A stretch of 64,000 nucleotides of DNA from an uncultured Gammaproteobacteria bacterium (GTDB lineage Bacteria; Patescibacteriota; Microgenomatia; JAMCZE01): assembly GCA_964576435.1 (NCBI GenBank), contig CAZNUP010000001.1, positions 226,345 through 290,344 on the forward strand. Direction: 5' to 3'. A program made the position numbers and the translations under genes. Positions 8,831 to 62,232 of the stretch are shown here, one piece after another. The first letter of the stretch is position 1. Every line of letters starts with the position of its first letter. Below the pieces are notes generated by a model, which did not search any database, was not told where the DNA came from, and worked only from the letters and a program-made list of their open reading frames with translations.

Positions 8831-10252
8831 TTAGCTTATTCGTGGGAAAAGGGGAGTTGAAGCTTTAACCTTTCCACTAAATTGTCTTAAAATCTTTTCT
8901 GACGTTTCGGGCAAAAACGGTTGCAAATTATAAGCAATCAAATTTATCTCCCGAACAGCCCCTTTGAGAAAATTACTTAGATCCCTTTCCTCTAATTTCC
9001 AAGGTTCCTTTTCGCTTATAAGTAAGTCCAGTTGCTTGATTCTTTTCCATATATTTTGGATTGCGAAATCAATCCGGTATGTTTTTAGGTTTTCCTCTAT
9101 ATCCTCAAACACATCCACATTTGGACTGCTTTCAAAGCTGGATTTCTCTGCTAGTTTTGCCACTCTCGCAACAAGGTTTCCAAGCCCATTAGCAAGGTCA
9201 GCATTATATGCTTCCTTGAACTTTTCATCAGAGTAATCGCCATCATCAAAAAGTGGAGTTTTAGCAAGGAAATAATATCTAACCGGATCTGTTCCAAACT
9301 TTTCAATAAGTTCAAAAGGGTCTATGGTGTTACCAAGGGTCTTTGATATTTTTTGGCCATTAACTGTGTAGTATCCATGAATTAAGACGGCTTTAGGTAG
9401 TGACAATCCCGCAGATAATAAAAATGCTGGCCAATAAACTGCATGAAATCTGGTGATTCCTTTACCAATTACATGCACATCCGCTGGCCACCATTTTTTA
9501 TAGCTTTTCTCGTCCCATCCAAACCCTACCCCAGTTTGGTAAATATTAAGTGCGTCAAACCAAACATAAATTCTTTGAGAATCGTCTCCAGGAACTGGAA
9601 TGCCCCAATTTTTTGCTCGTTCGTTTGATCTGGAAATTGATAAATCAGGAACATCTCCAGAAAGCCACCCAAGTACTTCATTCTTTCTAAAGTCTGGATA
9701 GATTTTTAGCTCGTTGGAATTTATAATTTCCAAAAGCTTTTCTTTATATTTAGACAGTTTGAAAAAGTAGTTTTCCTCTTCAACTTCATCCAACTTTTTT
9801 CCCGGATGTTCAAAACACTCTCCTTTTTCGTTTAACTCTTCTGGCTCATAAAATTGTTCGCACCCAACACAATAAAGTCCCTTATATTTTTTCTTATAAA
9901 TATCTCCATTTTTGGCACAAAGTTCCCATAGCTTTTGGCTGGCAGCATAATGGTGCCTTTCATCACTACCTCTTTGCCAAATATCGATGGACACATTTAA
10001 TTTCTTAACAAGATCTTCAAACTCACCATTATGTAAATCAATAAACTCTCGAATTGGTTGTCTGGCTTTTTCAGCGGCCTGTACATTTTTGAGCGCATTT
10101 TCATCTGCGCCGGACAAATATCTAACTTCTTTTCCATTAAGTCTATTAAACCTTGCAATTGCATCTGCTTGCACAGACTCGAGTGCCCACCCAATGTGAG
10201 GTTTTGCATTTACATAAGGTATTGCAGCTGTGATATAAAATTTATTATTCAT
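8831..10252 (-). CDS. metG: Methionyl-tRNA synthetase (short form)
   Basis: AIPYVNAKPHIGWALE (HIGH region) and KISKTLGN (KMSKS). AGGAG SD 8 nt upstream. Confidence 0.9.
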   Translation of the reverse strand: MNNKFYITAAIPYVNAKPHIGWALESVQADAIARFNRLNGKEVRYLSGADENALKNVQAAEKARQPIREFIDLHNGEFEDLVKKLNVSIDIWQRGSDERHHYAASQKLWELCAKNGDIYKKKYKGLYCVGCEQFYEPEELNEKGECFEHPGKKLDEVEEENYFFKLSKYKEKLLEIINSNELKIYPDFRKNEVLGWLSGDVPDLSISRSNERAKNWGIPVPGDDSQRIYVWFDALNIYQTGVGFGWDEKSYKKWWPADVHVIGKGITRFHAVYWPAFLLSAGLSLPKAVLIHGYYTVNGQKISKTLGNTIDPFELIEKFGTDPVRYYFLAKTPLFDDGDYSDEKFKEAYNADLANGLGNLVARVAKLAEKSSFESSPNVDVFEDIEENLKTYRIDFAIQNIWKRIKQLDLLISEKEPWKLEERDLSNFLKGAVREINLIAYNLQPFLPETSEKILRQFSGKVKASTPLFPRIS

Positions 10253-10379
10253 AATTTCTCCTATTTTAGCATTAAAAAATCCCGCCGTTTGCGGGATTAA
10301 GAAATGGAAATTCCTTCCCGCATGGGACTATGGTCTTTCCGTCATCATAAAGACTTTATCTTTCATTAGGTTTATTATA
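10253..10379 (-). promoter_or_regulatory. metG 5' leader with mutually exclusive antiterminator/terminator (attenuator). TATAAT at the 5' end; terminator hairpin 10279-10297 plus U6.
   Basis: On the minus-strand RNA, GCGGGA occurs twice (plus 10316-10321 and 10280-10285), flanking a single UCCCGC (plus 10291-10296). The downstream pairing gives AUCCCGC-AAACG-GCGGGAU followed by UUUUUU; the upstream pairing excludes it. AGGAG SD and AUG follow 25 nt later. Confidence 0.5.
10274..10297 (-). terminator. Intrinsic-terminator hairpin (7-bp GC stem, 5-nt loop) plus U6, within the metG leader / downstream of the 10380..10811 gene
   Basis: Plus strand: aaaaaa-atcccgc-cgttt-gcgggat. Confidence 0.55.
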
Positions 10380-10811
10380 TCACCCCTTCCTTCTTCTACC
10401 AACTCTAAATGGCCATCCCTTGGGAAAAAGAATGTCTCTTCTAAGTTCGGCTCTTGGTTCAGTGGGGCCCCCATCCTTGATATCTTCCTTTGGTTTTCTG
10501 AAGTAAAAAATCAGTAGAACAAGGAAAGCAACCAAAAGAACAACATTAATAATAGTTAAGAGGTCGACAGCCTTAAGAAACATAACAAAACTAACTCCAA
10601 AAGCTACTATTAATGCCAACTTTGAACTCACAAAAAAAGATAACAAGGTTAAAGTAGCTAGCCACAATAATATGGCTGCAACAAGAATACTTGTTAGTGT
10701 GGGTGGAGTATACATAACTAAACCAAAAAGACCCATCATGCAAGCAAGAAAAACTGGAATCTTTATCCAGAAAATATATTTTTGCAATCGCCTATAGATT
10801 ATGGTAAACAT
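10380..10811 (-). CDS. Small polytopic membrane protein, unknown function (real start possibly the internal Met at ~10739)
   Basis: Four hydrophobic helices and a basic C-terminal tail. Confidence 0.4.
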   Translation of the reverse strand: MFTIIYRRLQKYIFWIKIPVFLACMMGLFGLVMYTPPTLTSILVAAILLWLATLTLLSFFVSSKLALIVAFGVSFVMFLKAVDLLTIINVVLLVAFLVLLIFYFRKPKEDIKDGGPTEPRAELRRDILFPKGWPFRVGRRRKG

Positions 10812-25416: not shown

Positions 25417-26105
25417 TTTGTTTTCTTAGCTGCTGCTTTTTTAACAACTGGTTTTTTTGTAACTTCTTTTTTAACTTTTGATTCTTGAACTGTCTTAGCT
25501 TCCTTTACTTCAACTTTTTCTTCTTTAACTACTTTTGTTTCTTTCATTTCCAAGGCTTCTTCCATGATAATTATTTTGTCAGCTCTCAAAATTTCGTACA
25601 CATTAACTTGGTTCATTGGTAAGACTTCAACTCCTTGAATATTTCTAGCTGCTCGGTAAACATTTTCTCTATACATGTCAGTAACAATTAATGGTTTCTT
25701 TGTTGTAATAAATTCAGCAATATCTTTTGTCTTCCCAGAAAGTTTAGCCATATCTGAAAAGACAACAACTTCACCAGCTCTATTCTTAGATGAAAATGCA
25801 CTCGCTACTGCTTGTTTTCTCATTTTGTCAGAGAGGGTTAGTGAGTGATCTCTTGGTTTTGGTGCAAATGCAATACCTCCACCAACAAAGATTGGGGCTT
25901 TTCTATCTCCATGTCGAGCATTGCCTGATCCCTTTTGTTTTTGATACTTCTTTCGTGTTTTTGCAACTTCTGCTCTTGTCAAAGCACTTTGTGTTCCTTG
26001 TCTTTGATTTGCAAGATAAACTCGAACTGCTTGTGCCACAAGTTGTGGGTTTTCAGTTGTGTTAAACATTTCTTTAGGTAGTGTTGGTTTGTCTACTAAT
26101 TTCAT
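25413..26105 (-). CDS. rplD: Ribosomal protein L4 with Lys-rich C-terminal extension
   Basis: L4 core plus about 50-aa KKEVTKKPVVKKAAAKK tail. Confidence 0.9.
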   Translation of the reverse strand: MKLVDKPTLPKEMFNTTENPQLVAQAVRVYLANQRQGTQSALTRAEVAKTRKKYQKQKGSGNARHGDRKAPIFVGGGIAFAPKPRDHSLTLSDKMRKQAVASAFSSKNRAGEVVVFSDMAKLSGKTKDIAEFITTKKPLIVTDMYRENVYRAARNIQGVEVLPMNQVNVYEILRADKIIIMEEALEMKETKVVKEEKVEVKEAKTVQESKVKKEVTKKPVVKKAAAKKTK

Positions 26106-26680
26106 ATTTTTGTAATTGTCAAAAGTCCTCCATTATTTCCAGGAACTAAACCTCTAACTAAAATCAAATTTTCTTCAGGTAATATTTTGAAAACTTCCAA
26201 ATTTCGAACTGTTGCTATTCCTGTTCCCATGTGTCCTGCCATTTTCTTTCCTTTAAAAACTCTTCCCGGTGTAGTTGTTGATCCAATTGATCCAGGATGT
26301 CTTGGTCTAACTGATTGTCCATGAGTTGCTGGTCCACCATGAAATCCGTGTCTCTTCATGACACCAGCAAAACCCTTACCAATGGTTGTTCCAGAAACTT
26401 TGATTTTATCTCCAGGATTAAAAACGTCGGCAATTGCTATTTTTGTGCCGAATTCTTTTGGTTCTTCGCTTGGTGATTTTTTGATGTATTTTGGAGTAAT
26501 TTGGAGATCTTTAAGTTGTCCTTTGAGAGCTTTAGAAGGGTGTTTTTTAGATCCGAATACAACTTGATTATTAGTTATTACAGTCATTGGTTCAACAAAA
26601 ACAAACGTGACAGGAATTCGCATTCCTTGTGCGTCATAGTCTTGTCCTTGTTTTTGTTTGATTCCGTAAAACTTGTTCAT
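26102..26680 (-). CDS. rplC: Ribosomal protein L3
   Basis: GKGFAGVMKRHGFHGGPATHG. ATG chosen at 26680; the ORF-track start at 26689 is a TTG lying inside the U-tract. Confidence 0.9.
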   Translation of the reverse strand: MNKFYGIKQKQGQDYDAQGMRIPVTFVFVEPMTVITNNQVVFGSKKHPSKALKGQLKDLQITPKYIKKSPSEEPKEFGTKIAIADVFNPGDKIKVSGTTIGKGFAGVMKRHGFHGGPATHGQSVRPRHPGSIGSTTTPGRVFKGKKMAGHMGTGIATVRNLEVFKILPEENLILVRGLVPGNNGGLLTITKI

Positions 26681-26856
26681 AGACAACAAAAAAGTCCCGG
26701 AACGGGACTCAATTTAATGAGTTTTCCCTACTTCCGACTAACAATTGTTAGTGAGTTTAGGTCTCAGTAACATTAGGCTCTATTTTACAATAGAAATGAG
26801 GAAAAATCAACTGAAGTGGTGGTTCTCACTAGGAAACGCCTCACCTGCTCACAAAG
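26681..26856 (-). promoter_or_regulatory. rplC leader: sigma70-like promoter, 16-bp perfect palindrome, antiterminator/terminator switch abutting the rplC AUG
   Basis: Minus strand has TTGATT-N17-TAAAAT (plus 26805-26810 and 26782-26787). Palindrome ACTAACAATTGTTAGT at 26737-26752. GGGA...CUCA...UGAGUCCC helix is alternative to the AGUCCCG-GAA-CGGGACU (26693-26709) hairpin followed by UUUUUUGUUGUCU-AUG. Confidence 0.5.
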
Positions 26857-27297
26857 CTATCTCAGATTAGGTAGAAACTCAGGATCTTTTACATCTCTTT
26901 TTATGGTTTGAGAATGTGCAACAACTTCAGCTAGTGTAATTTTTGGGTCGTTTACAATAAGTTGAACCGCATAGACTTGGCCCGCACCAACATCTTCGTG
27001 TGTTTTTATTTCAACTCCAAGCTTTCGTAGGCCATCTTTTTGGTCATGAAGTCTAAGTGCGGGTGTAGAAGATATATATTTTTTAGTAATCTCGTTTGCG
27101 CGATTTAGCTGGTCTACTAGATAACTGCCTTTAATTTGTAGGGCCTCGTCCCATTTTTTTGATTGCCTATCGCTCTCAGCTGCAATATGTTCTTGGAATG
27201 TTTGACGAGGGTTATATTTATCTTTTTCAAGTTCAGATTCAACTTGCGGAATATCGTGGGTTATTCTGTCAATTTCACTTATCGAAGTCTCGGGCAT
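26857..27297 (-). CDS. Hypothetical protein (147 aa) inserted between rpsJ and rplC; no recognisable domain
   Basis: Clean ORF in its own frame, starting at internal Met MPETSISEID...; non-repetitive K/E-rich sequence. The ORF-track start at 27405 overlaps the rpsJ 3' end in another frame. Confidence 0.5.
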   Translation of the reverse strand: MPETSISEIDRITHDIPQVESELEKDKYNPRQTFQEHIAAESDRQSKKWDEALQIKGSYLVDQLNRANEITKKYISSTPALRLHDQKDGLRKLGVEIKTHEDVGAGQVYAVQLIVNDPKITLAEVVAHSQTIKRDVKDPEFLPNLR

Positions 27298-27316
27298 ACT
27301 AAAAATATACAATAAA

Positions 27317-27625
27317 CTACATCTTAATCTCAATATCCACACCCGCTGGGAGTTCAAGGTGCATGAGTGAATCAATTGTTTTGTCTGTAGGTTCAAGGAT
27401 ATCAATTAGTCTTTTGTGAACTTTAAGGTAAAAATGTTCTTGGGAATTTTTATCAGTGAAAGGGGATTGGTCAACTGTTATAAGTGAAGTGTCTGTTGGT
27501 AAGGGGACTGGACCCACAACTGAAGCACCAGTCCTAATGGCGGCGTCAAGAATAATTTGACAGGTCGAATCAAGGACGCGACCGTCATAAGCTTTTAAAC
27601 GTACTCGAATTCTGCCTTTTGGCAT
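27317..27625 (-). CDS. rpsJ: Ribosomal protein S10
   Basis: IRVRLKAYDGRVLD...; GGGAGGG SD upstream. Confidence 0.9.
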   Translation of the reverse strand: MPKGRIRVRLKAYDGRVLDSTCQIILDAAIRTGASVVGPVPLPTDTSLITVDQSPFTDKNSQEHFYLKVHKRLIDILEPTDKTIDSLMHLELPAGVDIEIKM

Positions 27626-27657
27626 TGGTCATTAATGACCCTCCCAAGTGGTCAAAG

Positions 27658-27688
27658 TGCAAAAGAAAAAGGCCGTTTGGCCCTTTTC
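27658..27688 (-). terminator. Intrinsic terminator/attenuator downstream of tuf (AAAAGGGCC-AAAC-GGCCUUUUU-CUUUUG on minus strand)
   Basis: GGCC/GGCC stem extended by A-U pairs, then a U-rich tract. Located between the tuf stop and the rpsJ start. Confidence 0.45.
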
Positions 27689-27708
27689 TCCTTAAGTTTT
27701 ATCTAACC

Positions 27709-28896
27709 TTAAGCTGTAATCTTAGAGACAACTCCTGCTCCAACTGTGTGTCCACCTTCTCGGACTGCGAATCGCATTCCTTCTTCGAGGGCCACTGGTT
27801 GAATGAGTTTAACTTTCATTTTTGCATTATCTCCAGGCATCACCATTTCGACGCCTTCTTGTAGTGTGACTTCACCAGTTACATCAGTCGTTCTGATATA
27901 AAACTGTGGTCTGTATCCACTAAAGAATGGAGTATGTCGTCCGCCTTCTTCTTTTGAAAGAATGTAAACTTCTGCTTCAAACTCAGTGTGTGGAGTAATA
28001 GATCCTGGCTTAGCCAAAACCTGTCCTCTTTCCACTTGGTCTTTTTCAACTCCTCGGAGTAAAAGTCCAACGTTATCTCCAGCTTGACCTTCATCAAGTT
28101 GTTTTCTGAACATTTCAACTCCGGTGACGACTGTCTTTTGAGTTGGTTTAAGCCCAACGATTTCAAGTTCTTCGTTGACCTTAACAACACCGCGCTCAAT
28201 TTTTCCAGTAACCACTGTTCCTCGACCTTTGATCGAGAAAACGTCTTCAACTGGCATAAGCATTGGCTTATCAAGTTCTCGAACTGGTGTTGGAACGTAT
28301 TCGTCAACAGCGTTCATAAGCTCCATGATTTTCTCTTCCATGGCGGCATCGCCTTCAAGAGCTTTAAGAGCTGAACCTTTGATAACTGGTGCTTTATCAC
28401 CATCGAATCCGTATTTAGTCAAAAGTTCTCGAACTTCGACTTCAACGAGATCCAAAAGTTCTGGATCAGATACCATGTCAACTTTATTAAGGAAGACAAC
28501 GATAGCTGGTACGTTAACTTGTTTGGCTAAGAGAAGATGTTCTCTTGTTTGTGCCATTGGACCATCAGCAGCGGACACGACCAAAATGGCTCCGTCAACT
28601 TGAGCGGCCCCAGTAATCATGTTCTTGATATAGTCAGCGTGACCTGGCATATCAATGTGTGCATAATGTCTTTTTTCTGTTTCGTACTCGACGTGAGTAA
28701 TGTTAATGGTGACTCCTCGAGCTTTTTCTTCTGGGGAGTTATCAATTTGATCATAAGCTCTAGCTTGGGCTAAACCCTTCTTTGCTAAAACTGTTGTAAT
28801 TGCGGAAGTTAATGTAGTCTTTCCATGGTCAACGTGACCCATGGTCCCAATATTAACGTGGGGCTTGTTTCGTGTGAATTTTGCTGCATCTGCCAT
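27709..28896 (-). CDS. tuf: Elongation factor Tu
   Basis: [23 protein letters not shown] motifs; 395 aa. Confidence 0.95.
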
Positions 28897-28994: not shown

Positions 28995-31088
28995 TTACTT
29001 TTTTGCAACAATTTGCTCCTGAATATTCTTTGGAGTTTCTTCGTAGTGTGATGGTTCAATATAAGCACTTGCTCGGCCTTGAGTAAGTGATCTAAGTTTT
29101 GTTGTGTATCCAGAAATTTCAGCAAGTGGGACAAGAGCTAGAACAATTGTTGCATTGCCTCTTTGATTAGTTCCTAAAATTTGTGCTCTCTTCGAGGAAA
29201 GATCACCGATAACATCTCCCATGAATTCATCAGGAGTTGTTACTTCCACTTTCATGATTGGTTCCAAAAGAACTAGTTCTGCATTTTTAGCTCCGTCTTG
29301 AAGAGCCATTGACCCTGCAATTTGGAAAGCAACATCTGAAGAGTCAACATCATGGAATGACCCATCAAAGAAAGTAACTTTAATATCAGTTAATGGATAT
29401 CCAGCTAATACACCATTGAGAGCTGCTTCTTTTGTTCCTTTTTCGACAGATCCAAAGAATTCTGAAGGAACTGCTCCACCTTTAATTTCATTAACAAATT
29501 CCCATCCTTCACCACGTGGTTTAGGTTCGACTTTAATAACGGCGTGACCATATTGTCCACGACCTCCAGTTTGTCTAATATATTTTCCTTCGCCTTCTGC
29601 TGCTTTCTTAATTGTTTCTTTATAAGCAACTTGTGGTGCACCAACATTTGTATCAACTGACATTTCATCTTTCATTCGTCTCACCCACACCTCAAGTTGT
29701 AATTCCCCAACTCCAGAAATAATTGTTTGTCCAGTTTCTTTGTCACTCTTTACATGAATTGTTGGATCTTCTTCCATGACTCTTTGAAGTGCAAGTCCGA
29801 GTTTTTCCTGATCAGATTTTGATTTTGGTTCAATAGCAAGAGAGATAACTGGTTCTGGGAATGTAATACCTTCAAGAACTATTGGATTTGCTTGTTCTGT
29901 AAGTGTGTCCCCAGTTCTTGTTTCTTTAAGTCCAACTACTGCAACAATTTCTCCAGCAAAAGCTTCTGTAATTTCTTCTCTATTATTTGCGTGCATTAGA
30001 AGTAATCGGCCGATTCTTTCCTGTGTTCCTTTAGTAGCATTCCAAACATAGGATCCAGATGTTAATTTTCCGGAATAAATTCGAACGTAATAGAGTTTTC
30101 CAACGTGTGGATCGAGTTGTACTTTGAAAGCCATTCCAGTAAATGGTTCTTCGACTTTTGCTTGTCTTGTAACTTCTTCTTTTGTTTTTGGATTAATCCC
30201 AGCGGTAGCAGGTTTATCAAGAGGCGATGGTAAGTAATCAACAATTGCGTCGAGTAATGGTTGCACACCTTTATTTCTAAGTGATGTGCCTGTGTATGTT
30301 GGAACCAATTTATAATCAACAACGGCTTTTCTAAGTGCCGCTTTAAGTTCCGAGATGGTTGGGATTTCTCCATTGAGATATTTCTCAAGAAGTTTCTCAT
30401 CAGTTTCAGAGATTCTTTCAACAAGTTCTTGTCGATATTTTTTAACAAGTTCTGGATCAAGTCCTTCTGGAATTTCTTTCTTGATCTCATATTTGGCTCC
30501 AAGCTCATCTCCGCCCCAAATCCAAGCCTGTTCTTCCATGAGGTCATAAACACCTTTAAATGTATTTTCAACACCAATTGGTAAAACCATTGGAAGGGGA
30601 GTGATGCCAAGCCTTTCTTTAATAGCTTCAAGTGTTTTATAGAAGTTAGCACCAAGTTTATCAATCTTATTGATGTAGATAATTCTTGGAACTTTATATT
30701 TGTCAGCCTGTCTCCAAACTGTTTCAGTTTGTGACTGCACTGTTTCCTCAGCATCAAGAACTGTAACAGCTCCGTCAAGGACGCGAAGTGATCGTTCAAC
30801 TTCAGCTGTAAAGTCAACGTGACCAGGTGTATCAATGATGTTAATTCGGTGATCTTTCCAAAATGTAGTAGTTGCGGCAGAAACAATTGTGATTCCTCTT
30901 TCTCTTTCCTGCGTCATCCAGTCCATCTGTGTGTCACCTTCATCAATATCACCAATTTTGTAAGTTTTTCCAGTGTAGTAAAGAAGTCGTTCTGTTGTAG
31001 TAGTTTTTCCGGCGTCAATGTGAGCAATGATTCCGATATTTCGGACTTTGTCTAAAGGTGTATTTCTATTTTTTGTTTGATCGGACAT
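28995..31088 (-). CDS. fusA: Elongation factor G
   Basis: AHIDAGKTTTTERLL, DTPGHVDF; 697 aa. Confidence 0.95.
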   Translation of the reverse strand: MSDQTKNRNTPLDKVRNIGIIAHIDAGKTTTTERLLYYTGKTYKIGDIDEGDTQMDWMTQERERGITIVSAATTTFWKDHRINIIDTPGHVDFTAEVERSLRVLDGAVTVLDAEETVQSQTETVWRQADKYKVPRIIYINKIDKLGANFYKTLEAIKERLGITPLPMVLPIGVENTFKGVYDLMEEQAWIWGGDELGAKYEIKKEIPEGLDPELVKKYRQELVERISETDEKLLEKYLNGEIPTISELKAALRKAVVDYKLVPTYTGTSLRNKGVQPLLDAIVDYLPSPLDKPATAGINPKTKEEVTRQAKVEEPFTGMAFKVQLDPHVGKLYYVRIYSGKLTSGSYVWNATKGTQERIGRLLLMHANNREEITEAFAGEIVAVVGLKETRTGDTLTEQANPIVLEGITFPEPVISLAIEPKSKSDQEKLGLALQRVMEEDPTIHVKSDKETGQTIISGVGELQLEVWVRRMKDEMSVDTNVGAPQVAYKETIKKAAEGEGKYIRQTGGRGQYGHAVIKVEPKPRGEGWEFVNEIKGGAVPSEFFGSVEKGTKEAALNGVLAGYPLTDIKVTFFDGSFHDVDSSDVAFQIAGSMALQDGAKNAELVLLEPIMKVEVTTPDEFMGDVIGDLSSKRAQILGTNQRGNATIVLALVPLAEISGYTTKLRSLTQGRASAYIEPSHYEETPKNIQEQIVAKK

Positions 31089-35100: not shown

Positions 35101-35870
35101 TCAGTAAGTTGTGTAAGTGGTCTAACACTCTTAACAAGATCTGAAAGTGTTTTATAAATTTCTCCTAGTCTGTTTTTCTCCAAATTGAATTCATCTTCAA
35201 CTTTGGCAATCTTTTGCTTGTTTGAAAGTTCCACTTCAGAAAGAACCATTTCAAGTCTAGTTGTGTCGTTTTTGATCTTTTCTTTTTGGTCTTTAATCTT
35301 TTCTGCGGCTTCTTCTTTAGCTTCTTTGAGTTTTACTTCAAAGTCTTTTTCCATGGTTTTTTGTCTATCTTCCATGGTTTTAGTAAGTTCAGTCAAAACT
35401 GAATCTCTTCTATCTTCGTCAACTGACAACACAAGATAGGAAGCAAAGTAGACTACGTTCTCAAGAGCTTTTGGTGACATGTCCAAAAGAAGTGACAATT
35501 TAGAAGGTGCGCCTTTGAAATACCAAACGTGTACGATAGGTACCGCAAGGGTAATATGGCCCATTCTTTCGCGTCTAACTTTAGATTGTGTGACTTCGAC
35601 TCCGCACTTGTCGCAGATAATTCCTCTGTATCTGATTCTCTTATATTTTCCACAATAACATTCCCAATCTTTAGTTGGTCCAAAGATATTTTCAGAAAAT
35701 AGTCCATCCTTTTCTGGCTTTAATGTTCGGTAGTTGATTGTTTCAGGTTTTGTAACTTCACCATATGACCAATCCAAAATATCGGTTGGCGAGGCAAGTA
35801 TAAGCTTTAGTCCCCTAAAATCGACTAAGTTTGCAAAATTATCTGAAACTTTATTACTATTTGTCTTCAT
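32130..35870 (-). CDS. rpoC: DNA-directed RNA polymerase beta' subunit
   Basis: [12 protein letters not shown] catalytic motif and Zn-binding cysteines; 1246 aa. Confidence 0.95.
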
Positions 35871-38800
35871 TTGTTGAAACCTCCTCTGTTATTTCTATTC
35901 CTGATGCTTCACTAATTGGTGTTTCTTCTGCATTAACTTCAGCATCCAAAACTTCTTTCATTTCATTAACTTCCTTTTCAACCTTTTCCTCTTGTTTGTC
36001 AGCTGCTGTTCCAGTTGCAGTTGGGATTGCGTTAGCAACAACCGCTCCACTTGGTGTAACTGAAAGAGCCAAACTTTGTAATTCTTTAACCAAAACCTTG
36101 AATGATTCTGGAATTGTTGATTGTGGAATATCAACACCTTTGACAATTGCTTCAAATGCTTTAGCGCGTCCCACAACGTCGTCTGATTTTATCGTAAGCA
36201 TCTCCTGAAGTGTATAGGCAGCTCGGTGTGCTTCAAGTGCCCAAACTTCCATTTCTCCAAGTCTCTGTCCACCCATTTGAGCTTTTCCGCCAAGTGGTTG
36301 TTGAGTAACAAGTGAGTATGGTCCTGTTGATCTTGCGTGTGTCTTATCCTCAACCATGTGCATGAGTTTGAGGATATAGGTTGTTCCAACCATGACTTTT
36401 TGATCAAGTTTTTCACCAGTTCGGCCGTCAATAACAGTTGTTTTTCCATCAGCTGGAAGACCCGCATCGGTTAAAGCCTTAGAAAGCCATTCTTCGGAAA
36501 TCTTTTCAAAAACTGGTACTGTTACTTTCTTGCCTTGGTGACTCATTGCCCAACCAAGATGTGCTTCCAAAATTTGTCCCAAGTTCATACGACCAAGAAC
36601 TGAAAGTGGGGAAATGATGATGTCGATTGGTGTTCCATCTTCAAGATGTGGCATGTCAGCTTGAGAGACAATTCTTGAAATAACACCTTTGTTCCCGTGT
36701 CTTCCGGCCACTTTGTCTCCAACTGAAACTTTTCTAACTTGTGCAACTTTAACTTTAATAAGTTTTGTTGTTCCTGGTGAAAGTTCATCTCCCTTTTCTT
36801 TGTCTAAAATATTGATTCCAATAACAGTTCCTTTTTCGCCGTGTGGCATGCGAAGTGATGTATCTCTGACTTCTCGTGCTTTTTCTCCAAAGATAGCTCG
36901 GAGTAGTCTTTCTTCTGCTGAAAGTTCAGTTTCACCTTTTGGTGCAATCTTTCCAACCAAAATATCATTTGGCCCAACTTCAGCACCAATTACGACAATT
37001 CCGTTTTCATCTAAGTTAGCAAGATCCATTTCGCCAACATTTGGAATATCTCTTGTAAGTTCTTCAGGTCCAAGTTTTGTATCAACTACTTCGCAGTCAT
37101 GTTCTTCAACGTGGATACTTGTCAAAAGGTCATCAGTAACAAGCCTATCAGAGACAATAATGGCGTCTTCGTAACCATAGCCTTCAAAGTGCATGTAGGC
37201 GATAGTCATATTGGATCCAAGTGCGAGCTCCCCATTTTCAGAAGATGGCCCATCAATAATTGGTTGTCCAACCTTAATTTTGTCTCCAGTTACAACTAAA
37301 GCTCTTTGTGAATAGCATGTTCCGTTTGGATCAGTTCTCTTGAATTTAACAAGTGAATAAGTTTCTAAATCGCCAACAATCTTAATGTTTTCATCCTGGT
37401 TTTTATCTTCCTTTGCTTTTTCAGCTTCCTTTTTATCAATTTTAATTACGACTTTATTTCCATCAACAAAAGCTACTTCTCCAGCATGTCTTGCTTTAAC
37501 AACCCATCCCATGGAAGTTGCTACATCTGCTTCAACTCCAGTTCCAACGTAAGGGGATTGTGGTCTAATAAGTGGCACTGCTTGAGCTTGCATATTTGAA
37601 CCCATCAGGGCGCGAATTCCGTCGTCATGTTGTAAAAATGGAATAAGGGCTGCTGCTGTTCCAACTACTTGTCTTGGAACAACATCCATAAGTCCAACTT
37701 CATCAGAATTTGCTGAAACGAATTCTCCTCTGAATCTAACTGGCACTCTTGAGTCTGTTATGTATCCATCTGAATCCATTCCAACCTCCGCATGAGTAAT
37801 TTTTTGGTCTCTTTCATCGTCAGCTGCCAAATAGACGATTTCTTCAGTCATTTTTACACCCTTACTGTCTTTTGCTAGTTTTCTGTATGGAGCCAACAGG
37901 AAGCCATATTCATCAACCTTGGTAAATAAGCTCATAAAGGTCACAAGACCGATATTTGGGCCTTCTGGAGACCTTACAGGGCAAATTCTACTGTATTGTG
38001 AAGAATTGATGTCTCGAATTGAGAAACTGGCTCTTTCCCGAGAAATTCCCCCAACCCCCATAACTGACAACTTTCTGAGTGTGTCGACCTCAGAAAGAGG
38101 GTTTGTTTGGTCCAAAATTGCTGATAATTGGGATGTCCTAAAGAATTCGTTTGTAGCTGAAATAAGAGGTCTGGCGTTCACAACTTGGTTAGGCATGACT
38201 TTAGATTTTGGATCTAAAAGGCTCATTCTTTCCTTAACAGCTCTTTCAAGTCTCATAAGACCTGATCTGAAAGCCACGTTTCCAACGAGTTCTCCAACTC
38301 TTCGTACTCTTCGATTGGCTAGGTGGTCAATATCATCTGTAAATGTTTCAGAATCTCCATTTTGAAGTCTAATGAGGTATTTGACAGTTTCAATTATATC
38401 CTCTCTCTTAAGTACCCAATTTTCAATTTCATTTGGGATATCAAGTCCAAGTCTTTTATTGATCTTATATCGTCCAACTTTTCCAAGATTATATCTTCGA
38501 ATATTGAAGAAAAGATCATTGATGTAATCAATTGCAGTTTCAACAACAACTGGTTCTCCAGGTCGCATCTTCTTATAAATTTCAGTGGCAGCTTCAGCAG
38601 ATCCATGTGTTGGGTCTTTTTTAAGTGTTGCTTCGATGAATGATTCAGTCCCCGTATCAACTCCAGAGAAAAGTTTCTTAATTTCTTCATCAGATCCAAT
38701 TCCAATAGCTCTTAAGAATGTAGTAATTGGGAATTTTCTGCGTCTATCAATTCGGACTGAAATAATTCCATTTCTGGAAATATTAAATTCCAACCAGCTT

Positions 38801-39330
38801 CCTCTAAAAGTTGGTCTAATTTCTGCAAAATAAAGCATTCGGCCAGTAACTGGATCAACTTCACCTAGGAAGTAGGTCCCAGCTGATCTAACGAGTTGAT
38901 TAACAACTGCTCTTTCAATTCCATTAATCACAAATGTTCCAGATTTTGTCATCATTGGCACTTCGCCAAAGAAAACTTCTTGAGTGGTGACTTCGCCAGT
39001 TTGTTTATTAAGAAGTCTTGCTTCAATTCTCATAGGAACGTCATAAGTGACGCCTTTAAGAGCTGCTTGTGATGCAGTGTACTTTGGTTTACCAAATGTA
39101 TATTTACCAAGTGATAACTCCCAATTTTTACCAGTAAAATCAGAGATAGGGGAAATTTCTGAAATTAAACTACCAATGCCTTCATCTAAAAATTGTTGAT
39201 AGGATTCTTGTTGAACGGAGAGGAAATCGAGTTCTGGAAGAGAGGGGTAATTTTTGCCCCAATACACGCGTGGAGCAAAAGCGTTTTCAGTGTTCTTATT
39301 TTGAGTTTGATTGTTAGTTTTATTAGCCAT
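35857..39330 (-). CDS. rpoB: DNA-directed RNA polymerase beta subunit
   Basis: Conserved rpoB blocks; 1157 aa. Overlaps the rpoC start by 14 nt. Confidence 0.95.
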
Positions 39331-39340
39331 TACTTACAAC

Positions 39341-39372
39341 AAAAAAGACAAGCGAACCCACAAAATGTTCGC
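39341..39372 (-). terminator. Terminator-like hairpin (GCGAAC-9 nt-GUUCGC) then UUGUCUUUUUUGUUGUAAGUA immediately before the rpoB AUG (attenuator, or terminator of the upstream gene)
   Basis: Plus gcgaac 39352-39357 and gttcgc 39367-39372; A6 at 39341-39346. Confidence 0.4.
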
Positions 39373-39428
39373 CATTTATTTCTATTAAGATGCTCTTAGT
39401 TTACCAAACTTTTCCCAAAATGCAAGGG

Positions 39429-59838: not shown

Positions 59839-60270
59839 TTAGCTAATTAAGTTAACTATATTTACAACAGTTATTGTTGTAAGAATCGAAAGACAAGCGG
59901 CCGTAGCAAGTAAAAGATAACTAAACACTTTGTCTTCCTCTTTTATAAAAAGTGTAATTACAAAGTTAATTATTCCAAATAAGAATGTTGCAATAAGAGG
60001 CAGGAAAATATAATTTTTATTAGCTAGTTGTCCCTCACCCCAAATATGGCTATAGAATAGAGGGATTTGTGAAGGTAGATTACTAATATTGATTCCAACA
60101 TATATTAAACCGATAGCTAGTGTTAAGGCCCAAACTAGGCATAAGGCGACAACATACTTGTCACTAAATATTTTCTTAATCATTGTCACCTGCGGGTTTT
60201 GAAAACTTGCCGCAGGAGACATGTCACTGATGCCTTTAAACCTTGATGGAAAGGTTTTAAATTTTTGCAT
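59839..60270 (-). CDS. Small membrane protein, unknown function
   Basis: Three hydrophobic helices. Confidence 0.3.
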   Translation of the reverse strand: MQKFKTFPSRFKGISDMSPAASFQNPQVTMIKKIFSDKYVVALCLVWALTLAIGLIYVGINISNLPSQIPLFYSHIWGEGQLANKNYIFLPLIATFLFGIINFVITLFIKEEDKVFSYLLLATAACLSILTTITVVNIVNLIS

Positions 60271-62038
60271 AGACTCTTCGGATTCCAGATGACACTGCTT
60301 CTTCTTTTATGATTTTAATTTGTCCAATCTCTTTAGTATTTTGAACATGTGGTCCGCCACATATTTCCTTTGACACATCACCAAATGAATATACAGTGAC
60401 TTTTTCAGGATATTTCTCTTTAAAAAATGCCATCGCCCCTTCTTTAATTGCCTCTTCATAAGTCATTGTCTCAACTTTTCTTTCTAGTCCTTCACTAATC
60501 CATTTATTGATTAAATCTTCCACCTGTTTAATTTCTTCTGGAGTCAGTTTATTTGGATAAGAAAAATCAAATCGCAATCTTTCTCCTGTTAAATTAGATC
60601 CTTCCTGTCGGACCCCATTTCCTAAAACTTTTCGAAGTGCAGCTTGCAAAAGGTGTGTGGCAGTATGATATTTCACAACTTCATCTGAGTGGTCAGCGAG
60701 TCCTCCTTTAAACATTCCCTGGCTAGCAGTTCGAGATTTTTCTTTATGTTTAGAATAAGCTTCATCATATTCTTCCTTTGTCGCAACCTTAATGTTCTTG
60801 GCTTTACCCTCCTCCTCAGTCAACTCATAAGGGAACCCAAATGATTCATAAAGATAGAACACTTCTTCGGCAGACAACTCTCCACTTGCAGATAATTTTT
60901 CAAATTCTTTAAGTCCTTTAGAAAGTGTATTCCTAAATTTGGTTTCCTCTTTGGAAATAACCTCCTTAATATTTATTTTGTTTTCCAAGAGTTCTGGATA
61001 AACTTCAGCATATGTTTCTGCTACTGGGTCAACAACTTTCTCAATGAAATTTTCTTCAACACCTAAATTTTTACTATACCTAATAGCTCTTCTAATTAGT
61101 CTACGAAGCACATAACCTCTGTCTGTGTTACTAGGAAGTACTCCTGCTGAAATAAGGAATGTTGCGGAACGAATATGATCAGCGACAATCCGGAAGTCTT
61201 TAGATTCACCACCATATTGTTGTCCAGATATCTTTTCAATTGTTTTAATTATTTCAGAAAATACATCAGTCTTAAAAACATCCATGTCATTATTAAGCGC
61301 AGCCAGTGTTCTTTCTATGCCCCCTCCAAAATCTACGTTTTTTTGTTTCAGCTCTTCAAATCCATCAGAAGTTTTTTTATAAGTTATAAAAACACAATTT
61401 CCAATTTCAATGAATCTTCCACAATCACAATTTGGATGGCACTTTTCTCCAAATTTTGGATCATGTGGTACATGAGTGAATTCATAAAACACTTCGGAAC
61501 TTGGTCCGCCAATTTCTCCAACAGGCATTTTTTCAGGTGGGCCACTTCTGCTCCACCAATTTGATTTTCCACTGTAATAAAAAATCCTTTCTTCTGGAAA
61601 TCCTAGTTTTTTCCAAATATCCGCAGAGTATGTGTCTTTAGGGACATAGTCATTCCCCTCAAAACAGGTTGCATAAAGATTTTCTAATGAAAATCCTAAT
61701 TCTTTAGTCAAAAATTCAAAGTACCAAGGGATTTGTTCATCTTTAAAATAATCACCAAGTGACCAATTTCCCATCATCTCAAAAAAGGAGTCATGCCTAT
61801 TATCTCCAACCTCGTCAATATCCTGCCCTCTGAAGCACTTTTGAATATCCACAATTCTATTACCAAGTGGGTGTTTCTCTCCAAGTAGATATGGGATTAG
61901 AGGTTGCATTCCTGATCCCGTAAAGAGGGTAGTAGGATCATTTTCTGGGACCAATGAGCTAGAAGGCACAATTACCGAATTTCTCGGGGTTTGGGTCCAA
62001 AAGTCAAAATATTTCTTCCTAAGATCTAAGTGTTTCAT
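60257..62038 (-). CDS. alaS: Alanyl-tRNA synthetase, short form (catalytic, tRNA-binding and editing domains; no C-Ala domain)
   Basis: IVPSSSLVPENDPTTLFTGSGMQP... class II catalytic core; editing-domain HxxxH (HTATHLL) and CGGPH. 593 aa. Confidence 0.85.
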   Translation of the reverse strand: MKHLDLRKKYFDFWTQTPRNSVIVPSSSLVPENDPTTLFTGSGMQPLIPYLLGEKHPLGNRIVDIQKCFRGQDIDEVGDNRHDSFFEMMGNWSLGDYFKDEQIPWYFEFLTKELGFSLENLYATCFEGNDYVPKDTYSADIWKKLGFPEERIFYYSGKSNWWSRSGPPEKMPVGEIGGPSSEVFYEFTHVPHDPKFGEKCHPNCDCGRFIEIGNCVFITYKKTSDGFEELKQKNVDFGGGIERTLAALNNDMDVFKTDVFSEIIKTIEKISGQQYGGESKDFRIVADHIRSATFLISAGVLPSNTDRGYVLRRLIRRAIRYSKNLGVEENFIEKVVDPVAETYAEVYPELLENKINIKEVISKEETKFRNTLSKGLKEFEKLSASGELSAEEVFYLYESFGFPYELTEEEGKAKNIKVATKEEYDEAYSKHKEKSRTASQGMFKGGLADHSDEVVKYHTATHLLQAALRKVLGNGVRQEGSNLTGERLRFDFSYPNKLTPEEIKQVEDLINKWISEGLERKVETMTYEEAIKEGAMAFFKEKYPEKVTVYSFGDVSKEICGGPHVQNTKEIGQIKIIKEEAVSSGIRRVYAKI

Positions 62039-62232
62039 AAAAAAACCTCGTTCCAGTATTAAATTAACTTAATACAAGGACGAGGAATTCTCGTGGTACC
62101 ACCTTGCTTGCTTCTTATTTTCTGCTTTACGGGCAGTTCCGGCAAACTCTTCGCTTGCAGCTCTTGGGTTGGCATCCCAATCAAACGCTTTTATACAACG
62201 TCTTTATTATATCAAATCCGACGGCCTCAATC
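62039..62232 (-). ncRNA. T-box riboswitch leader of alaS
   Basis: Minus-strand RNA: ...GCAAGG-UGGUACC-ACGAG-AAUUC-CUCGU-CCUUG... Helix A1 is CAAGG/CCUUG, the 7-nt bulge is UGGUACC, and helix A2 is ACGAG/CUCGU. GGUGGUACCACG matches the T-box consensus GGUGGNACCGCG. A competing terminator is CCUCGU...(GUAUUAA/UUAAUAC inner helix)...ACGAGG then U7 abutting the AUG. Confidence 0.65.

What the first reader, a model, noticed from the sequence alone, without database searches (positions are those of the whole stretch)
26681..27297. Unknown 147-aa gene and a 176-nt structured leader inserted between rpsJ and rplC in the S10 operon
rpsJ-rplC adjacency is among the most conserved gene linkages in bacteria. 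Here a clean 441-nt ORF (MPETSISEIDRITHD...EFLPNLR, no known motif) sits between them. A 176-nt non-coding stretch follows it, directly upstream of rplC. A protein co-located here is a candidate ribosome-associated or regulatory factor. Its presence also splits the S10 operon into two transcription units.
Basis: partly seen in the sequence, partly recalled or inferred. Interest (0 to 1): 0.7.

Follow-up and report, generated by a model that had tools for sequence, protein, structure and literature searches.

The report
Strain-specific orphan gene plus conserved rplC attenuator
Between two ribosomal protein genes of a tiny uncultured (Microgenomates/CPR) bacterium sits a one-strain orphan gene that is merely cargo in a swap-prone slot, while the short untranslated stretch next to it is a conserved, previously undescribed RNA switch that probably controls transcription of the main ribosomal protein operon.

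Summary
All genes are on the minus strand. The order is rpsJ 27317-27625, a 146-aa ORF 26857-27297, a 176-nt gap, then rplC 26102-26680.

ORF146 looks like a real gene by codon usage. It has no homologue in 5.8 billion proteins. In relatives with nearly identical flanks the same slot holds at least eight other ORFs, none detectably similar to it, or is empty. It is therefore strain-specific cargo, not a conserved ribosome factor, and it did not split the operon.

The conserved element is the last ~97 nt of the gap (26681-26775). It consists of:
- a -10 box 6-10 nt before a 5'-terminal AUG,
- a 9-11-codon upstream ORF (uORF),
- a nearly invariant ~40-nt irregular hairpin,
- an intrinsic terminator abutting the rplC start.

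This element is present in every relative examined whose L3 is at least 52% identical, including one where rplC is not next to rpsJ. It matches no Rfam 15 family. Folding shows mutually exclusive anti-antiterminator, antiterminator and terminator pairings.

Best reading: a new transcription attenuator for the rplC-rplD operon. The sensor is unresolved: either a ribosomal protein (uL4 or uL3) or ribosomes translating the leaderless uORF.

The parts
27317..27625 (-). rpsJ (ribosomal protein S10), the left conserved flank of the variable slot
   Evidence: Pfam PF00338, E 1e-30. It belongs to a 90%-identity cluster of 31 members.
27304..27333 (-). Promoter-like site for ORF146: TTGAGA, 18-nt spacer, TATATT. 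The -10 ends 6 nt before the ORF146 ATG, which suggests a leaderless mRNA.
   Evidence: Best consensus match in the region, 10 of 12. The spacing resembles other putative leaderless genes of the window. Function is inferred.
26857..27297 (-). ORF146, a strain-specific orphan gene: acidic (pI 5.7), hydrophilic, with a predicted long helix at residues 30-77
   Evidence: Codon usage is gene-like. There is no homologue and no family or structure match. The AF2 model has pLDDT 55.
26811..26856 (-). Non-conserved spacer after ORF146, the right end of the variable slot
   Evidence: It is not alignable with relatives. BLASTN similarity resumes only around the promoter.
26782..26810 (-). Promoter of the rplC operon: -35 TTGATT at 26805-26810 and -10 TAAAAT at 26782-26787
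   Evidence: Found by the consensus scan. A TAnnnT box lies 6-10 nt before the leader AUG in all 19 distinct leaders. A cTTGyyTTTT -35 region recurs in relatives.
26738..26773 (-). Leaderless upstream ORF: AUG at the predicted TSS, peptide MLLRPKLTNNC, stop at the invariant UAG
   Evidence: An ORF of 9 or 11 codons is present in 19 of 19 leaders, with AUG changed to GUG and an in-frame 3-nt indel in L101. In the five leaders where the invariant UAG is out of frame, a UAA, UGA or UAG directly follows codon 9. Translation is inferred.
26722..26774 (-). Conserved leader core, proposed anti-antiterminator or ligand site. P1 is CCUA/UAGG. An internal loop AAC/AAG follows. P2 is UC-ACUAAC/GUUAGU-(C)-GG. 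An alternative 5' hairpin P0 pairs GUUACUGAG with CUCACUAAC.
   Evidence: Covariance model R1 gives 76.5 bits, E 2e-18, and a single hit in 64 kb. The P1/P2 model pairs 95.8% of cells and P0 77%. The core is 68-98% identical where 4-fold sites of rplC are 25-60% identical.
26698..26736 (-). Antiterminator alternative: CGGAA..GGGA of the core 3' strand pairs with UCCC.UUCCG of the terminator 5' arm and loop, enclosing hairpin P3 (26707-26722)
   Evidence: It appears in the MFE of the full window leader. The equivalent pairing is the MFE of the nascent RNA in 14 of 15 lineages. Summed duplex energy is -105.9 against -78.8 +/- 6.8 for shuffled partners.
26686..26710 (-). Intrinsic terminator (attenuator): GAGUCCCG-UUC-CGGGACUU followed by a U-run, ending 5 nt before the rplC AUG
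   Evidence: Found by the terminator scan. Every relative has a GC-rich hairpin plus U-run at this place, with different stem sequences.
26102..26680 (-). rplC (L3), the first gene of the regulated operon rplC-rplD-rplW-rplB-rpsS-rplV...
   Evidence: Pfam PF00297 and gene order. The ATG at 26680 matches the N-termini of relatives (MNxFYG). The TTG at 26689 lies inside the terminator U-run.

Best explanation
Two separate things lie between rpsJ and rplC.

(1) ORF146 is a genuine but strain-specific orphan protein gene. It sits in a permissive, recombination-prone slot that begins right after the rpsJ stop codon and ends just upstream of the rplC promoter. Different lineages carry different small genes there, or nothing. 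Its function is unknown. It is most likely an accessory protein expressed from the end of the rpsJ unit or from its own leaderless promoter. It is not part of ribosome biology.

(2) The conserved element is a ~97-nt promoter-proximal leader that works as a transcription attenuator for the rplC-rplD-... operon. Transcription starts at about 26773-26775, at an AUG. The RNA can fold in two ways. In the OFF fold, the nearly invariant irregular hairpin P1/P2 (anti-antiterminator) forms together with the intrinsic terminator. In the ON fold, the 3' strand of that hairpin (GGAWGUAGGG) pairs with the terminator's 5' arm and loop (antiterminator), helped by a 5' hairpin P0 that ties up the other strand. 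I infer that a ribosomal protein made by the operon, uL4 or uL3, binds and stabilises P1/P2 when in excess, which causes termination 5 nt before rplC. Translation of the 9-11-codon leaderless uORF, which runs through the 5' strand of P1/P2, would oppose this and favour read-through.

Shown here: the conservation, the promoter and terminator signals, the alternative pairings in silico, and the uORF pattern. Inferred: the ligand, the direction of regulation, and whether the uORF is translated.
For: Slot:
- ORF146 has no homologue.
- Nine ORFs of 146, 167, 162, 116, 90, 73, 72, 71 and 60 aa occupy the slot. The seven compared pairwise share no BLASTP similarity. The 167- and 162-aa ORFs may be distant homologues on a 24%-identical MAFFT alignment.
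- At least six lineages have an empty slot.
- L083 and L087 have 98% identical DNA flanks but unrelated slot contents, 294 against 546 nt.
- Slot genes are real. ORF146 has gene-like codon usage. The 90-aa ORF has dN/dS 0.16, with dS equal to that of its flanks.

Leader:
- There is one R1 hit per locus in all 16 relative loci searched, including L101 where rplC is detached from rpsJ. There is none in 80 loci of other phyla.
- The core is more conserved than the L3 protein, while neighbouring 4-fold sites are saturated.
- A -10 box lies 6-10 nt before the AUG in 19 of 19 leaders.
- Terminator stems differ between lineages but are always present and abut rplC. No room remains for another promoter, so rplC expression needs read-through.
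- The nascent-RNA MFE contains the antiterminator in 14 of 15 lineages, and the full-length OFF state is 3-11 kcal/mol more stable.
- Complementarity between the core 3' strand and the terminator exceeds shuffled controls.
- The variable core positions (C/U at 26736, A/U at 26732) change together with their partners in the terminator loop.
- The spacing between the P2 half-sites varies from 4 to 8 nt, which fits an RNA hairpin and not a DNA operator.

Genome context: the same genome uses terminators abutting start codons as attenuators elsewhere, for example a truncated T-box before alaS (E 5e-11).

Precedents: B. subtilis rplJL has anti-antiterminator, antiterminator, terminator and a leader peptide (PMC4538822). 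uL4 with NusA attenuates in the E. coli S10 leader (PMC10931766). An L4 leader candidate lies before rplC-rplD in Archaeoglobi (PMC7247131).
Against: - The core is almost invariant, so covariation support for P1/P2 is weak: one compensatory pair, and 120 of 500 shuffles do as well.
- The sequences are phylogenetically related and few (19 distinct). Six were fetched by a pattern taken from the core itself, so the statistics are not independent tests.
- No significant similarity to E. coli 23S rRNA was found (p 0.17-0.97). No 23S of this clade was available, so rRNA mimicry, and therefore the ligand, is untested.
- The OFF state is thermodynamically favoured without any ligand, so a protein may not be needed.
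- No expression data exist for the promoter, terminator, uORF or ORF146.
- The ORF146 structure model is unusable (pLDDT 55).
Confidence: 0.6

Rival explanations
1. Pure ribosome-mediated attenuation. No protein ligand exists. The leaderless uORF is loaded directly by free 70S ribosomes. A ribosome translating through the 5' strand of P1/P2 frees the 3' strand to form the antiterminator, so transcription of the ribosomal protein operon reports translational capacity.
For: An AUG (GUG in L101) sits at the predicted +1 in 19 of 19 leaders. The indel in L101 is in frame. The stop always falls at or before the invariant UAG, with UAA, UGA or UAG substituted where that UAG is out of frame. The genome is essentially Shine-Dalgarno-less, and many first genes look leaderless. 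A non-homologous Daviesbacteria leader also has an AUG 8 nt after its -10 box. Leaderless uORF attenuators exist in mycobacteria (bioRxiv 10.1101/834739).
Against: Third codon positions of codons 5-9 are invariant, which points to RNA-level constraint and not to selection on the peptide. There are no repeated 'sensor' codons. A 9-11-codon ORF is not rare by chance in AT-rich sequence. The predicted sign (more ribosomes, more r-protein) is a positive feedback. No translation data exist.
Confidence: 0.2
2. The conserved element is an independent ~85-90-nt small RNA gene with its own promoter and terminator. It acts in trans and merely lies in front of rplC.
For: Promoter and terminator delimit a discrete short transcript. 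Its sequence conservation exceeds that of typical leaders. Attenuator-derived sRNAs acting in trans are known (PMC6614838, listed).
Against: The element is always 0-25 nt from the rplC start, on the same strand, in 19 of 19 cases. It stays with rplC when rplC is separated from rpsJ (L101). rplC has no other promoter, so read-through must occur. The alternative pairing involves the terminator itself. A trans role could coexist with the cis role.
Confidence: 0.1
3. The core is a small-molecule riboswitch aptamer, for example glutamine-riboswitch-like, because of the hairpin followed by CGGAAGUAGG.
For: There is a weak Rfam match to RF01739: 17.7 bits, E 0.6, model positions 9-40 of 53.
Against: The score is far below the gathering threshold of 35. 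The closing P1 helix of that family is not matched. The score falls to 12.8 bits in L083 and there is no hit at all in L104, where the motif reads GGAUGUAGG. Nothing links the gene context to nitrogen metabolism.
Confidence: 0.05
4. One reading: ORF146 is a ribosome-associated or regulatory factor that belongs functionally with the leader and the S10 operon.
For: The only support is its position directly after rpsJ and its gene-like coding signal.
Against: It has no homologue in 5.8e9 clustered proteins or in a full HMMER scan of 1.84e9 representatives. Relatives carry ORFs with no detectable similarity to it, or none, in front of the same leader. It has no domain or fold match.
Confidence: 0.04

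Closest known systems
Bacillus subtilis rplJL leader, autoregulated by L10(L12)4 through transcription attenuation (Yakhnin et al. 2015, PMC4538822)
   Same: Both lie directly upstream of a ribosomal protein operon. Both have three mutually exclusive structures (anti-antiterminator, antiterminator, intrinsic terminator). Both have a short leader peptide ORF whose translation raises expression in B. subtilis.
   Different: There is no sequence or Rfam relationship. The operon differs (rplC-rplD... instead of rplJL). The ligand is unknown. The uORF here is leaderless and overlaps the anti-antiterminator. Nothing has been tested experimentally.
Escherichia coli S10 leader: uL4- and NusA-dependent attenuation plus translational repression (review PMC10931766)
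   Same: Both give feedback control of the operon that contains rplC and rplD through a terminator in the 5' leader. uL4 is the obvious candidate ligand.
   Different: The E. coli leader precedes rpsJ, is about 170 nt long and has a different structure. It is confined to some Gammaproteobacteria (PMC3616713). Here the leader sits between rpsJ and rplC, so rpsJ is outside the regulated unit.
L4 ribosomal leader candidate of Archaeoglobi, upstream of rplC-rplD-rplW-rplB (Eckert & Weinberg 2020, PMC7247131; in Rfam)
   Same: Both are placed directly before rplC-rplD, and both are predicted r-protein leaders found by comparative genomics.
   Different: The Archaeoglobi motif is archaeal. No Rfam family matched this window at gathering score or at any convincing E-value. 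The Archaeoglobi motif is not described with a promoter-proximal uORF or terminator.
Leaderless short-ORF attenuators of mycobacteria (polycysteine uORFs, bioRxiv 10.1101/834739)
   Same: In both, a 5'-terminal AUG starts a very short ORF as the first cistron and is proposed to control downstream operon expression.
   Different: The mycobacterial uORFs sense cysteine through runs of Cys codons. The uORF here has no repeated codon and precedes ribosomal protein genes.
Flexible genomic islets: replacement of small accessory genes between conserved core genes (general pangenome concept, own knowledge)
   Same: Both show sharp boundaries in highly conserved flanks, unrelated contents in near-identical backgrounds, and orphan genes.
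   Different: The location is unusual: inside the str/S10 ribosomal cluster, between rpsJ and rplC. The cargo is single ORFs of 60-167 aa. No integrase, repeat or mobile-element signature flanks the slot, apart from an IS66-like fragment in one relative.

Membership tests
Any described RNA family (Rfam 15, including all curated ribosomal protein leaders) | Covariance-model score at or above the family's gathering threshold | tested here: not met
   The whole window gave only a tRNA-Pro at gathering score. A permissive scan of 26600-27400 gave a best E of 0.6. Scans of the relatives L104 and L083 gave only chance-level hits.
Glutamine riboswitch (RF01739) | Full three-stem aptamer with the conserved E-loop GGAAGUA, scoring at least 35 bits | tested here: not met
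   The score is 17.7 bits over model positions 9-40 of 53. It is 12.8 bits in L083 and absent in L104, where the motif is GGAUGUA.
Protein-dependent transcription attenuator of an r-protein operon (rplJL, infC and S10 types) | Intrinsic terminator in the 5' leader between the promoter and the first gene | tested here: met
   The terminator at 26692-26710 plus U-run ends 5 nt before the rplC ATG, and the promoter -10 lies at 26782-26787. Both are present in 19 of 19 leaders.
Protein-dependent transcription attenuator of an r-protein operon (rplJL, infC and S10 types) | Mutually exclusive antiterminator and anti-antiterminator structures | tested here: met
   This was tested in silico only. The antiterminator is the MFE of the nascent RNA in 14 of 15 lineages. 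Complementarity exceeds shuffles. P1/P2 pairs 95.8% of cells.
Protein-dependent transcription attenuator of an r-protein operon (rplJL, infC and S10 types) | Binding of an operon-encoded ribosomal protein to the leader, usually through rRNA mimicry | tested here: inconclusive
   Binding cannot be tested with these tools. Similarity to E. coli 23S is not significant. An 11-of-12 match of GUUAGUCGGAAG to 23S nt 290-301 is within chance. No 23S of this clade was available.
Ribosome-mediated (leader peptide) attenuator | Short ORF overlapping the alternative structures, with conserved start and stop | tested here: met
   A 9- or 11-codon ORF starts at the 5'-terminal AUG or GUG in 19 of 19 leaders, and the stop is always at or before the invariant UAG.
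Ribosome-mediated (leader peptide) attenuator | Regulatory codons (runs of the sensed amino acid) and demonstrated translation | tested here: not met
   The peptide ML(L/V)x(P/S)(K/R)LTN.. has no repeated codon. Translation itself cannot be tested here.
Known protein families (Pfam, NCBIfam, PHROGs, PADLOC, PDB sequences and folds) for ORF146 | Significant profile or fold match | tested here: not met
   The best hits are all sub-threshold: Pfam E 0.064, NCBIfam E 0.041, PADLOC E 0.018 at 11.8 bits, PDB sequences E 0.15 and Foldseek E 1.0 on a model with pLDDT 55. PHROGs gave no hit.
Palindromic DNA operator (rival reading of ACTAAC-N4-GTTAGT) | Fixed spacing of the half-sites | tested here: not met
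   The spacing between the half-sites varies from 4 to 8 nt among lineages, and the upper stem decays to ACTA/TAGT. That is the behaviour of an RNA hairpin loop.

The most novel reading that the evidence does not exclude
The rplC leader is a 'ribosome-sensing' attenuator. Its transcript starts with an AUG, so free 70S ribosomes load directly. Their translation of a 9-11-codon uORF through the anti-antiterminator decides whether RNA polymerase reads into the main ribosomal protein operon. This would be a direct coupling of ribosomal protein transcription to translational capacity, in organisms that largely lack Shine-Dalgarno initiation. Non-homologous versions occur in other Microgenomates classes.
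Probability: 0.2. Interest if true: 0.8.

Novelty: new member of a known kind. Interest (0 to 1): 0.5.

Why it matters
Autogenous control of the S10/L3-L4 ribosomal protein cluster is understood mechanistically only in some Gammaproteobacteria. Almost nothing is known about gene regulation in Patescibacteria (CPR), and I found no paper describing an r-protein leader there.

A compact leader of under 100 nt, with a defined promoter, uORF, invariant hairpin and terminator, is directly testable in vitro. It could reveal how these reduced genomes balance ribosome synthesis.

The variable slot after rpsJ shows that even the most conserved gene linkage in bacteria can host a turnover of orphan genes. 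The slot marks a tolerated, probably highly expressed insertion site, which could be useful for genetic tools in CPR bacteria. It is also a caution for annotators: in several relatives the rplC start has been called inside the leader.

Tried and rejected
- Homology searches for ORF146 all found only itself or nothing. These were the word-indexed search, the full HMMER scan, viral contigs, Pfam, NCBIfam, PHROGs, PADLOC and PDB, and a single-sequence AF2 model with Foldseek (the model is too poor to use).
- A profile of the 162- and 167-aa slot ORFs also found only themselves.
It was useful only as a negative control for the leader.
- The pattern scan of viral contigs for the leader gave nothing.
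- rRNA mimicry was tested only against E. coli 23S and was not significant. Papers on the L4 site (PMC4692380, PMC309543, PMC305621) were not available.
- Covariation on the core is uninformative because the core is invariant.
- A boxA-like reading (CUCACUAAC against CUCUUUAAC, 7 of 9 matches by eye) was rejected. The U-rich centre that defines boxA is missing, and the match is within chance.
- The DNA-operator reading was rejected because of the variable half-site spacing.
- Flanking direct repeats or target-site duplications around the slot were not found.
- Folding of the whole 196-nt gap is not significant.
Full report
**What is there.** All genes of the region are on the minus strand. In transcription order they are:
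- fusA 28995-31088
- tuf 27709-28896
- rpsJ 27317-27625
- an ORF 26857-27297
- a 176-nt gap 26681-26856
- rplC 26102-26680
- then rplD, rplW, rplB, rpsS, rplV

The ORF is 441 nt including its stop, so 146 aa. A longer TTG-initiated version would overlap rpsJ out of frame and is unlikely.

**Is ORF146 a gene?** Yes, very probably.
- A stop-free run of 146 codons has probability 4e-5 at this composition.
- Its in-frame codon-usage score is 0.25 bit/codon. That lies within the range of 25 long genes of the window (0.33 +/- 0.13) and far above off-frames (-0.78 +/- 0.23).
- GC at codon positions 1/2/3 is 0.59/0.32/0.26, as in the genes of the window.
- The arrangement recurs in two independent assemblies.
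- The strongest promoter-like site of the region is TTGAGA-18-TATATT. It ends 6 nt before the ATG. In this genome that spacing suggests a leaderless mRNA.

**What ORF146 is not.**
- It has no homologue among 5.8 billion clustered proteins, in a full HMMER scan of 1.84 billion representatives, or in viral contigs.
- Pfam, NCBIfam, PHROGs, PADLOC and PDB sequences give nothing above noise.
- A single-sequence AlphaFold model is poor (pLDDT 55: a long helix at 30-77 followed by a small alpha/beta unit). Foldseek finds nothing with it.

**Synteny in relatives: a variable slot.** The organism belongs to the Microgenomates (Patescibacteria/CPR), judged from source names of L3 and S10 relatives. I fetched loci through S10 cluster members, L3 homologues and one DNA pattern scan. 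The space between the rpsJ stop and the rplC promoter is occupied very differently from locus to locus:

| Slot content | Loci |
|---|---|
| 146-aa ORF | window |
| 167-aa ORF | L087 |
| 162-aa ORF | L091, L093, L097 |
| 116-aa ORF | L106 |
| 90-aa ORF | L090, L092, L095, L096 |
| 73-aa ORF, after an IS66-like fragment | L098 |
| 72-aa ORF | L104 |
| 71-aa ORF, with a strong Shine-Dalgarno | L099 |
| 60-aa ORF | L088, L089 |
| non-coding filler of 70-300 nt | L083-86, L094, L103 |
| 12-15-nt spacer, no slot | L100, L105, L107, L108, L110 |

The seven slot ORFs compared show no pairwise BLASTP similarity. The 167- and 162-aa ORFs may be distant homologues, on a 24%-identical MAFFT alignment only. 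The profile of those two finds nothing else in the database.

The boundaries of the slot are sharp. L083 and L087 are 98% identical in rpsJ and again from the promoter through rplC. Between those flanks, 294 nt in one and 546 nt in the other are unrelated.

The slot genes are functional. The 90-aa ORF has dN/dS 0.16, and its dS (0.25) is like that of its flanks (0.27-0.36). No repeats flank the slot in the window.

I conclude that ORF146 is strain-specific cargo in a permissive, recombination-prone site. How cassettes arrive is inferred, not shown. The likely route is illegitimate insertion followed by spread through homologous recombination in the extremely conserved flanks. Natural competence is documented in Saccharibacteria (PMC10633639).

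**The conserved element.** The last ~97 nt of the gap are conserved in all relatives. In the window the parts are:
- -35 TTGATT at 26805-26810
- -10 TAAAAT at 26782-26787
- AUG at 26773-26771
- core at 26774-26722
- variable hairpin P3 at 26722-26707
- terminator GAGUCCCG-UUC-CGGGACUU at 26710-26692, followed by a U-run
- rplC AUG at 26680

Further evidence for conservation:
- A covariance model of the core (R1) finds exactly one hit in the 64-kb window, at 76.5 bits.
- It finds one hit in each of the 16 relative loci searched and none in 80 S10-operon loci of other phyla, including Daviesbacteria.
- It also hits L110, whose L3 is 52% identical, but not Gottesmanbacteria L111 at 48%.
- In L101 and L102, rplC is not next to rpsJ at all, yet the leader is there. 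The annotated rplC start in those loci lies inside the leader.
- Against the window, the core is 68-98% identical, while 4-fold degenerate sites of rplC are 25-60% identical and the L3 protein is 56-80% identical.
- No Rfam 15 family matches.

**Anatomy and mechanism.** RNAalifold and my own counts give an irregular hairpin. P1 is CCUA/UAGG. A 3x3 internal loop AAC/AWG follows. P2 is UC-ACUAAC/GUUAGU-(Y bulge)-GG. This model pairs 95.8% of cells.

The paired positions are invariant. The three variable core positions are unpaired in this model, so covariation cannot prove it: there is one compensatory pair, C-G to A-U in L101.

The 5' strand can instead pair with the first nucleotides of the transcript to form hairpin P0, with 77% of cells paired.

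The core 3' strand, YGGAWGUAGGG, is complementary to the terminator's 5' arm and loop.
- In 14 of 15 lineages the MFE of the nascent RNA, cut before the terminator's 3' arm, contains this antiterminator.
- The full-length fold with P1/P2 plus terminator is 3-11 kcal/mol more stable.
- Summed duplex energies are -105.9 kcal/mol, against -78.8 +/- 6.8 for shuffled partners.
- The A/U and C/U variable positions of the core change together with the terminator loop. Examples are GGAAG with CUUCC or UUCC, GGAUG with CAUC or AUCC, and UGGAU with GUCCA.

This is the anti-antiterminator, antiterminator and terminator logic shown experimentally for B. subtilis rplJL (PMC4538822).

The terminator ends 0-25 nt before the rplC start. 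No promoter fits in between, so the essential operon can only be expressed by read-through. That makes this terminator an attenuator by position.

**The upstream ORF.** In all 19 distinct leaders a TAnnnT box lies 6-10 nt (mostly 7-8) before an AUG, or a GUG in L101. The transcript therefore probably starts at the start codon.
- The reading frame encodes M-L-(L/V)-x-(P/S)-(K/R)-L-T-N and ends after 9 or 11 codons.
- L101 differs by an in-frame 3-nt indel.
- In the five leaders where the invariant UAG of P2 is out of frame, codon 10 is UAA, UGA or UAG.
- The genome is essentially Shine-Dalgarno-less: 7 of 70 genes have an SD-like motif. Many first genes have a -10 box 6-9 nt before the ATG. A 5'-terminal AUG is therefore likely to be used.
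- Against a peptide function, third codon positions of codons 5-9 are invariant, and there are no sensor codons.

**Which sensor?** I could not decide this.
- A ribosomal protein ligand is the best prior, by analogy with the E. coli S10 leader and the Archaeoglobi L4 candidate. uL4 or uL3 are the obvious candidates.
- Similarity to E. coli 23S is not significant. No 23S of this clade was available.
- A purely ribosome-mediated switch is the main rival.
- A trans-acting sRNA role, a metabolite riboswitch and a DNA operator are less likely, for the reasons given under rival explanations.

**Broader pattern.** Daviesbacteria (L003) and Gottesmanbacteria (L111) have non-homologous rpsJ-rplC spacers of 217-250 nt. 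Each carries a promoter-like site and a terminator abutting rplC. L003 again has an AUG 8 nt after its -10 box. A separate, attenuated rplC transcription unit may therefore be general in Microgenomates.

**Verdict.**
The ORF is real but is strain-specific cargo. The leader is real, older than the ORF and independent of it.
- The leader is a new member of the known class of ribosomal protein operon attenuators. Its leaderless uORF is unusual.
- The slot of orphan genes inside the rpsJ-rplC linkage is a curiosity that deserves a pangenome-scale survey.

Noticed in passing
window 62073-62194 (-), upstream of alaS 60257-62038: There is a truncated T-box leader: Rfam RF00230 at 54.4 bits, E 4.8e-11, below the gathering score of 93 and so missed by the default scan. 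Stem I is reduced from about 74 model positions to 5 nt. The T-box sequence AAGGUGGUACCACG is intact. The terminator U-run abuts the alaS ATG.
   Followed up: partly
window 10263-10383 (-), upstream of metG (MetRS) 8831-10252: An extended -10 (TGATATAAT) lies 7 nt before a leaderless 12-codon ORF, MKDKVFMMTERP (10365-10327), which has tandem Met codons. Competing hairpins follow (GCGGGA can pair with UCCCAU.. or with the terminator arm UCCCGC), then a terminator. This could be a Met-sensing leader-peptide attenuator, but a second -10 (TGCTAAAAT) lies between the terminator and metG.
   Followed up: partly
window 39331-39420 (-), upstream of rpoB 35857-39330: A promoter-like TTGCAT-17-TAAACT is followed by a hairpin (GGCGAAC...GUUCGCU) and a U-run ending 10 nt before the rpoB ATG. 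The tail UUUUUUGUUGUAAGUAAUG resembles the one before rplC.
   Followed up: no
whole window (70 gene starts): The genome is essentially without Shine-Dalgarno sequences: 7 of 70 starts have an SD-like motif. Start contexts are A/U-rich. 11 starts have a TAnnnT box 5-9 nt upstream, which suggests frequent leaderless mRNAs.
   Followed up: partly
window ~27655-27690 (-), between tuf and rpsJ: The hairpin AAAAGGGCC-AAAC-GGCCUUUUU lies directly after tuf. rpsJ, with ORF146, may therefore be a transcription unit separate from fusA-tuf.
   Followed up: no
L003 3750-4000 (Daviesbacteria) and L111 2284-2500 (Gottesmanbacteria): Both have enlarged rpsJ-rplC spacers with promoter-like sites and terminators abutting rplC, not homologous to the leader studied here. 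L003 has TGTTAAAAT, then 8 nt, then AUG UUU AAA AAC ACU UCU UAA. L111 has UCGGAUGAGUAG and competing hairpins.
   Followed up: partly
L101 2501-2571; window 26681-26689; L082 413: Gene callers place the rplC start inside the leader. L101 gets a 228-aa product that starts at the uORF-proximal ATG. The window's TTG start at 26689 gives a 195-aa product. The conserved N-terminus MNxFYG marks the true start.
   Followed up: yes
L083/L090 1940-2542; L088 1253-1713; L098 464-1150: The neighbouring fusA-tuf junction is also variable in relatives. It holds peptide deformylase in some loci and two small ORFs in L088/L089. An IS66-like transposase fragment precedes the slot ORF in L098.
   Followed up: no
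window 26714-26724 and 26748-26758: An 11-nt direct repeat lies within the leader: AAACUCAUUAA and AAACUCACUAA on the RNA strand. The 5' arm of hairpin P3 nearly duplicates the 5' strand of the core. The significance is unknown.
   Followed up: no
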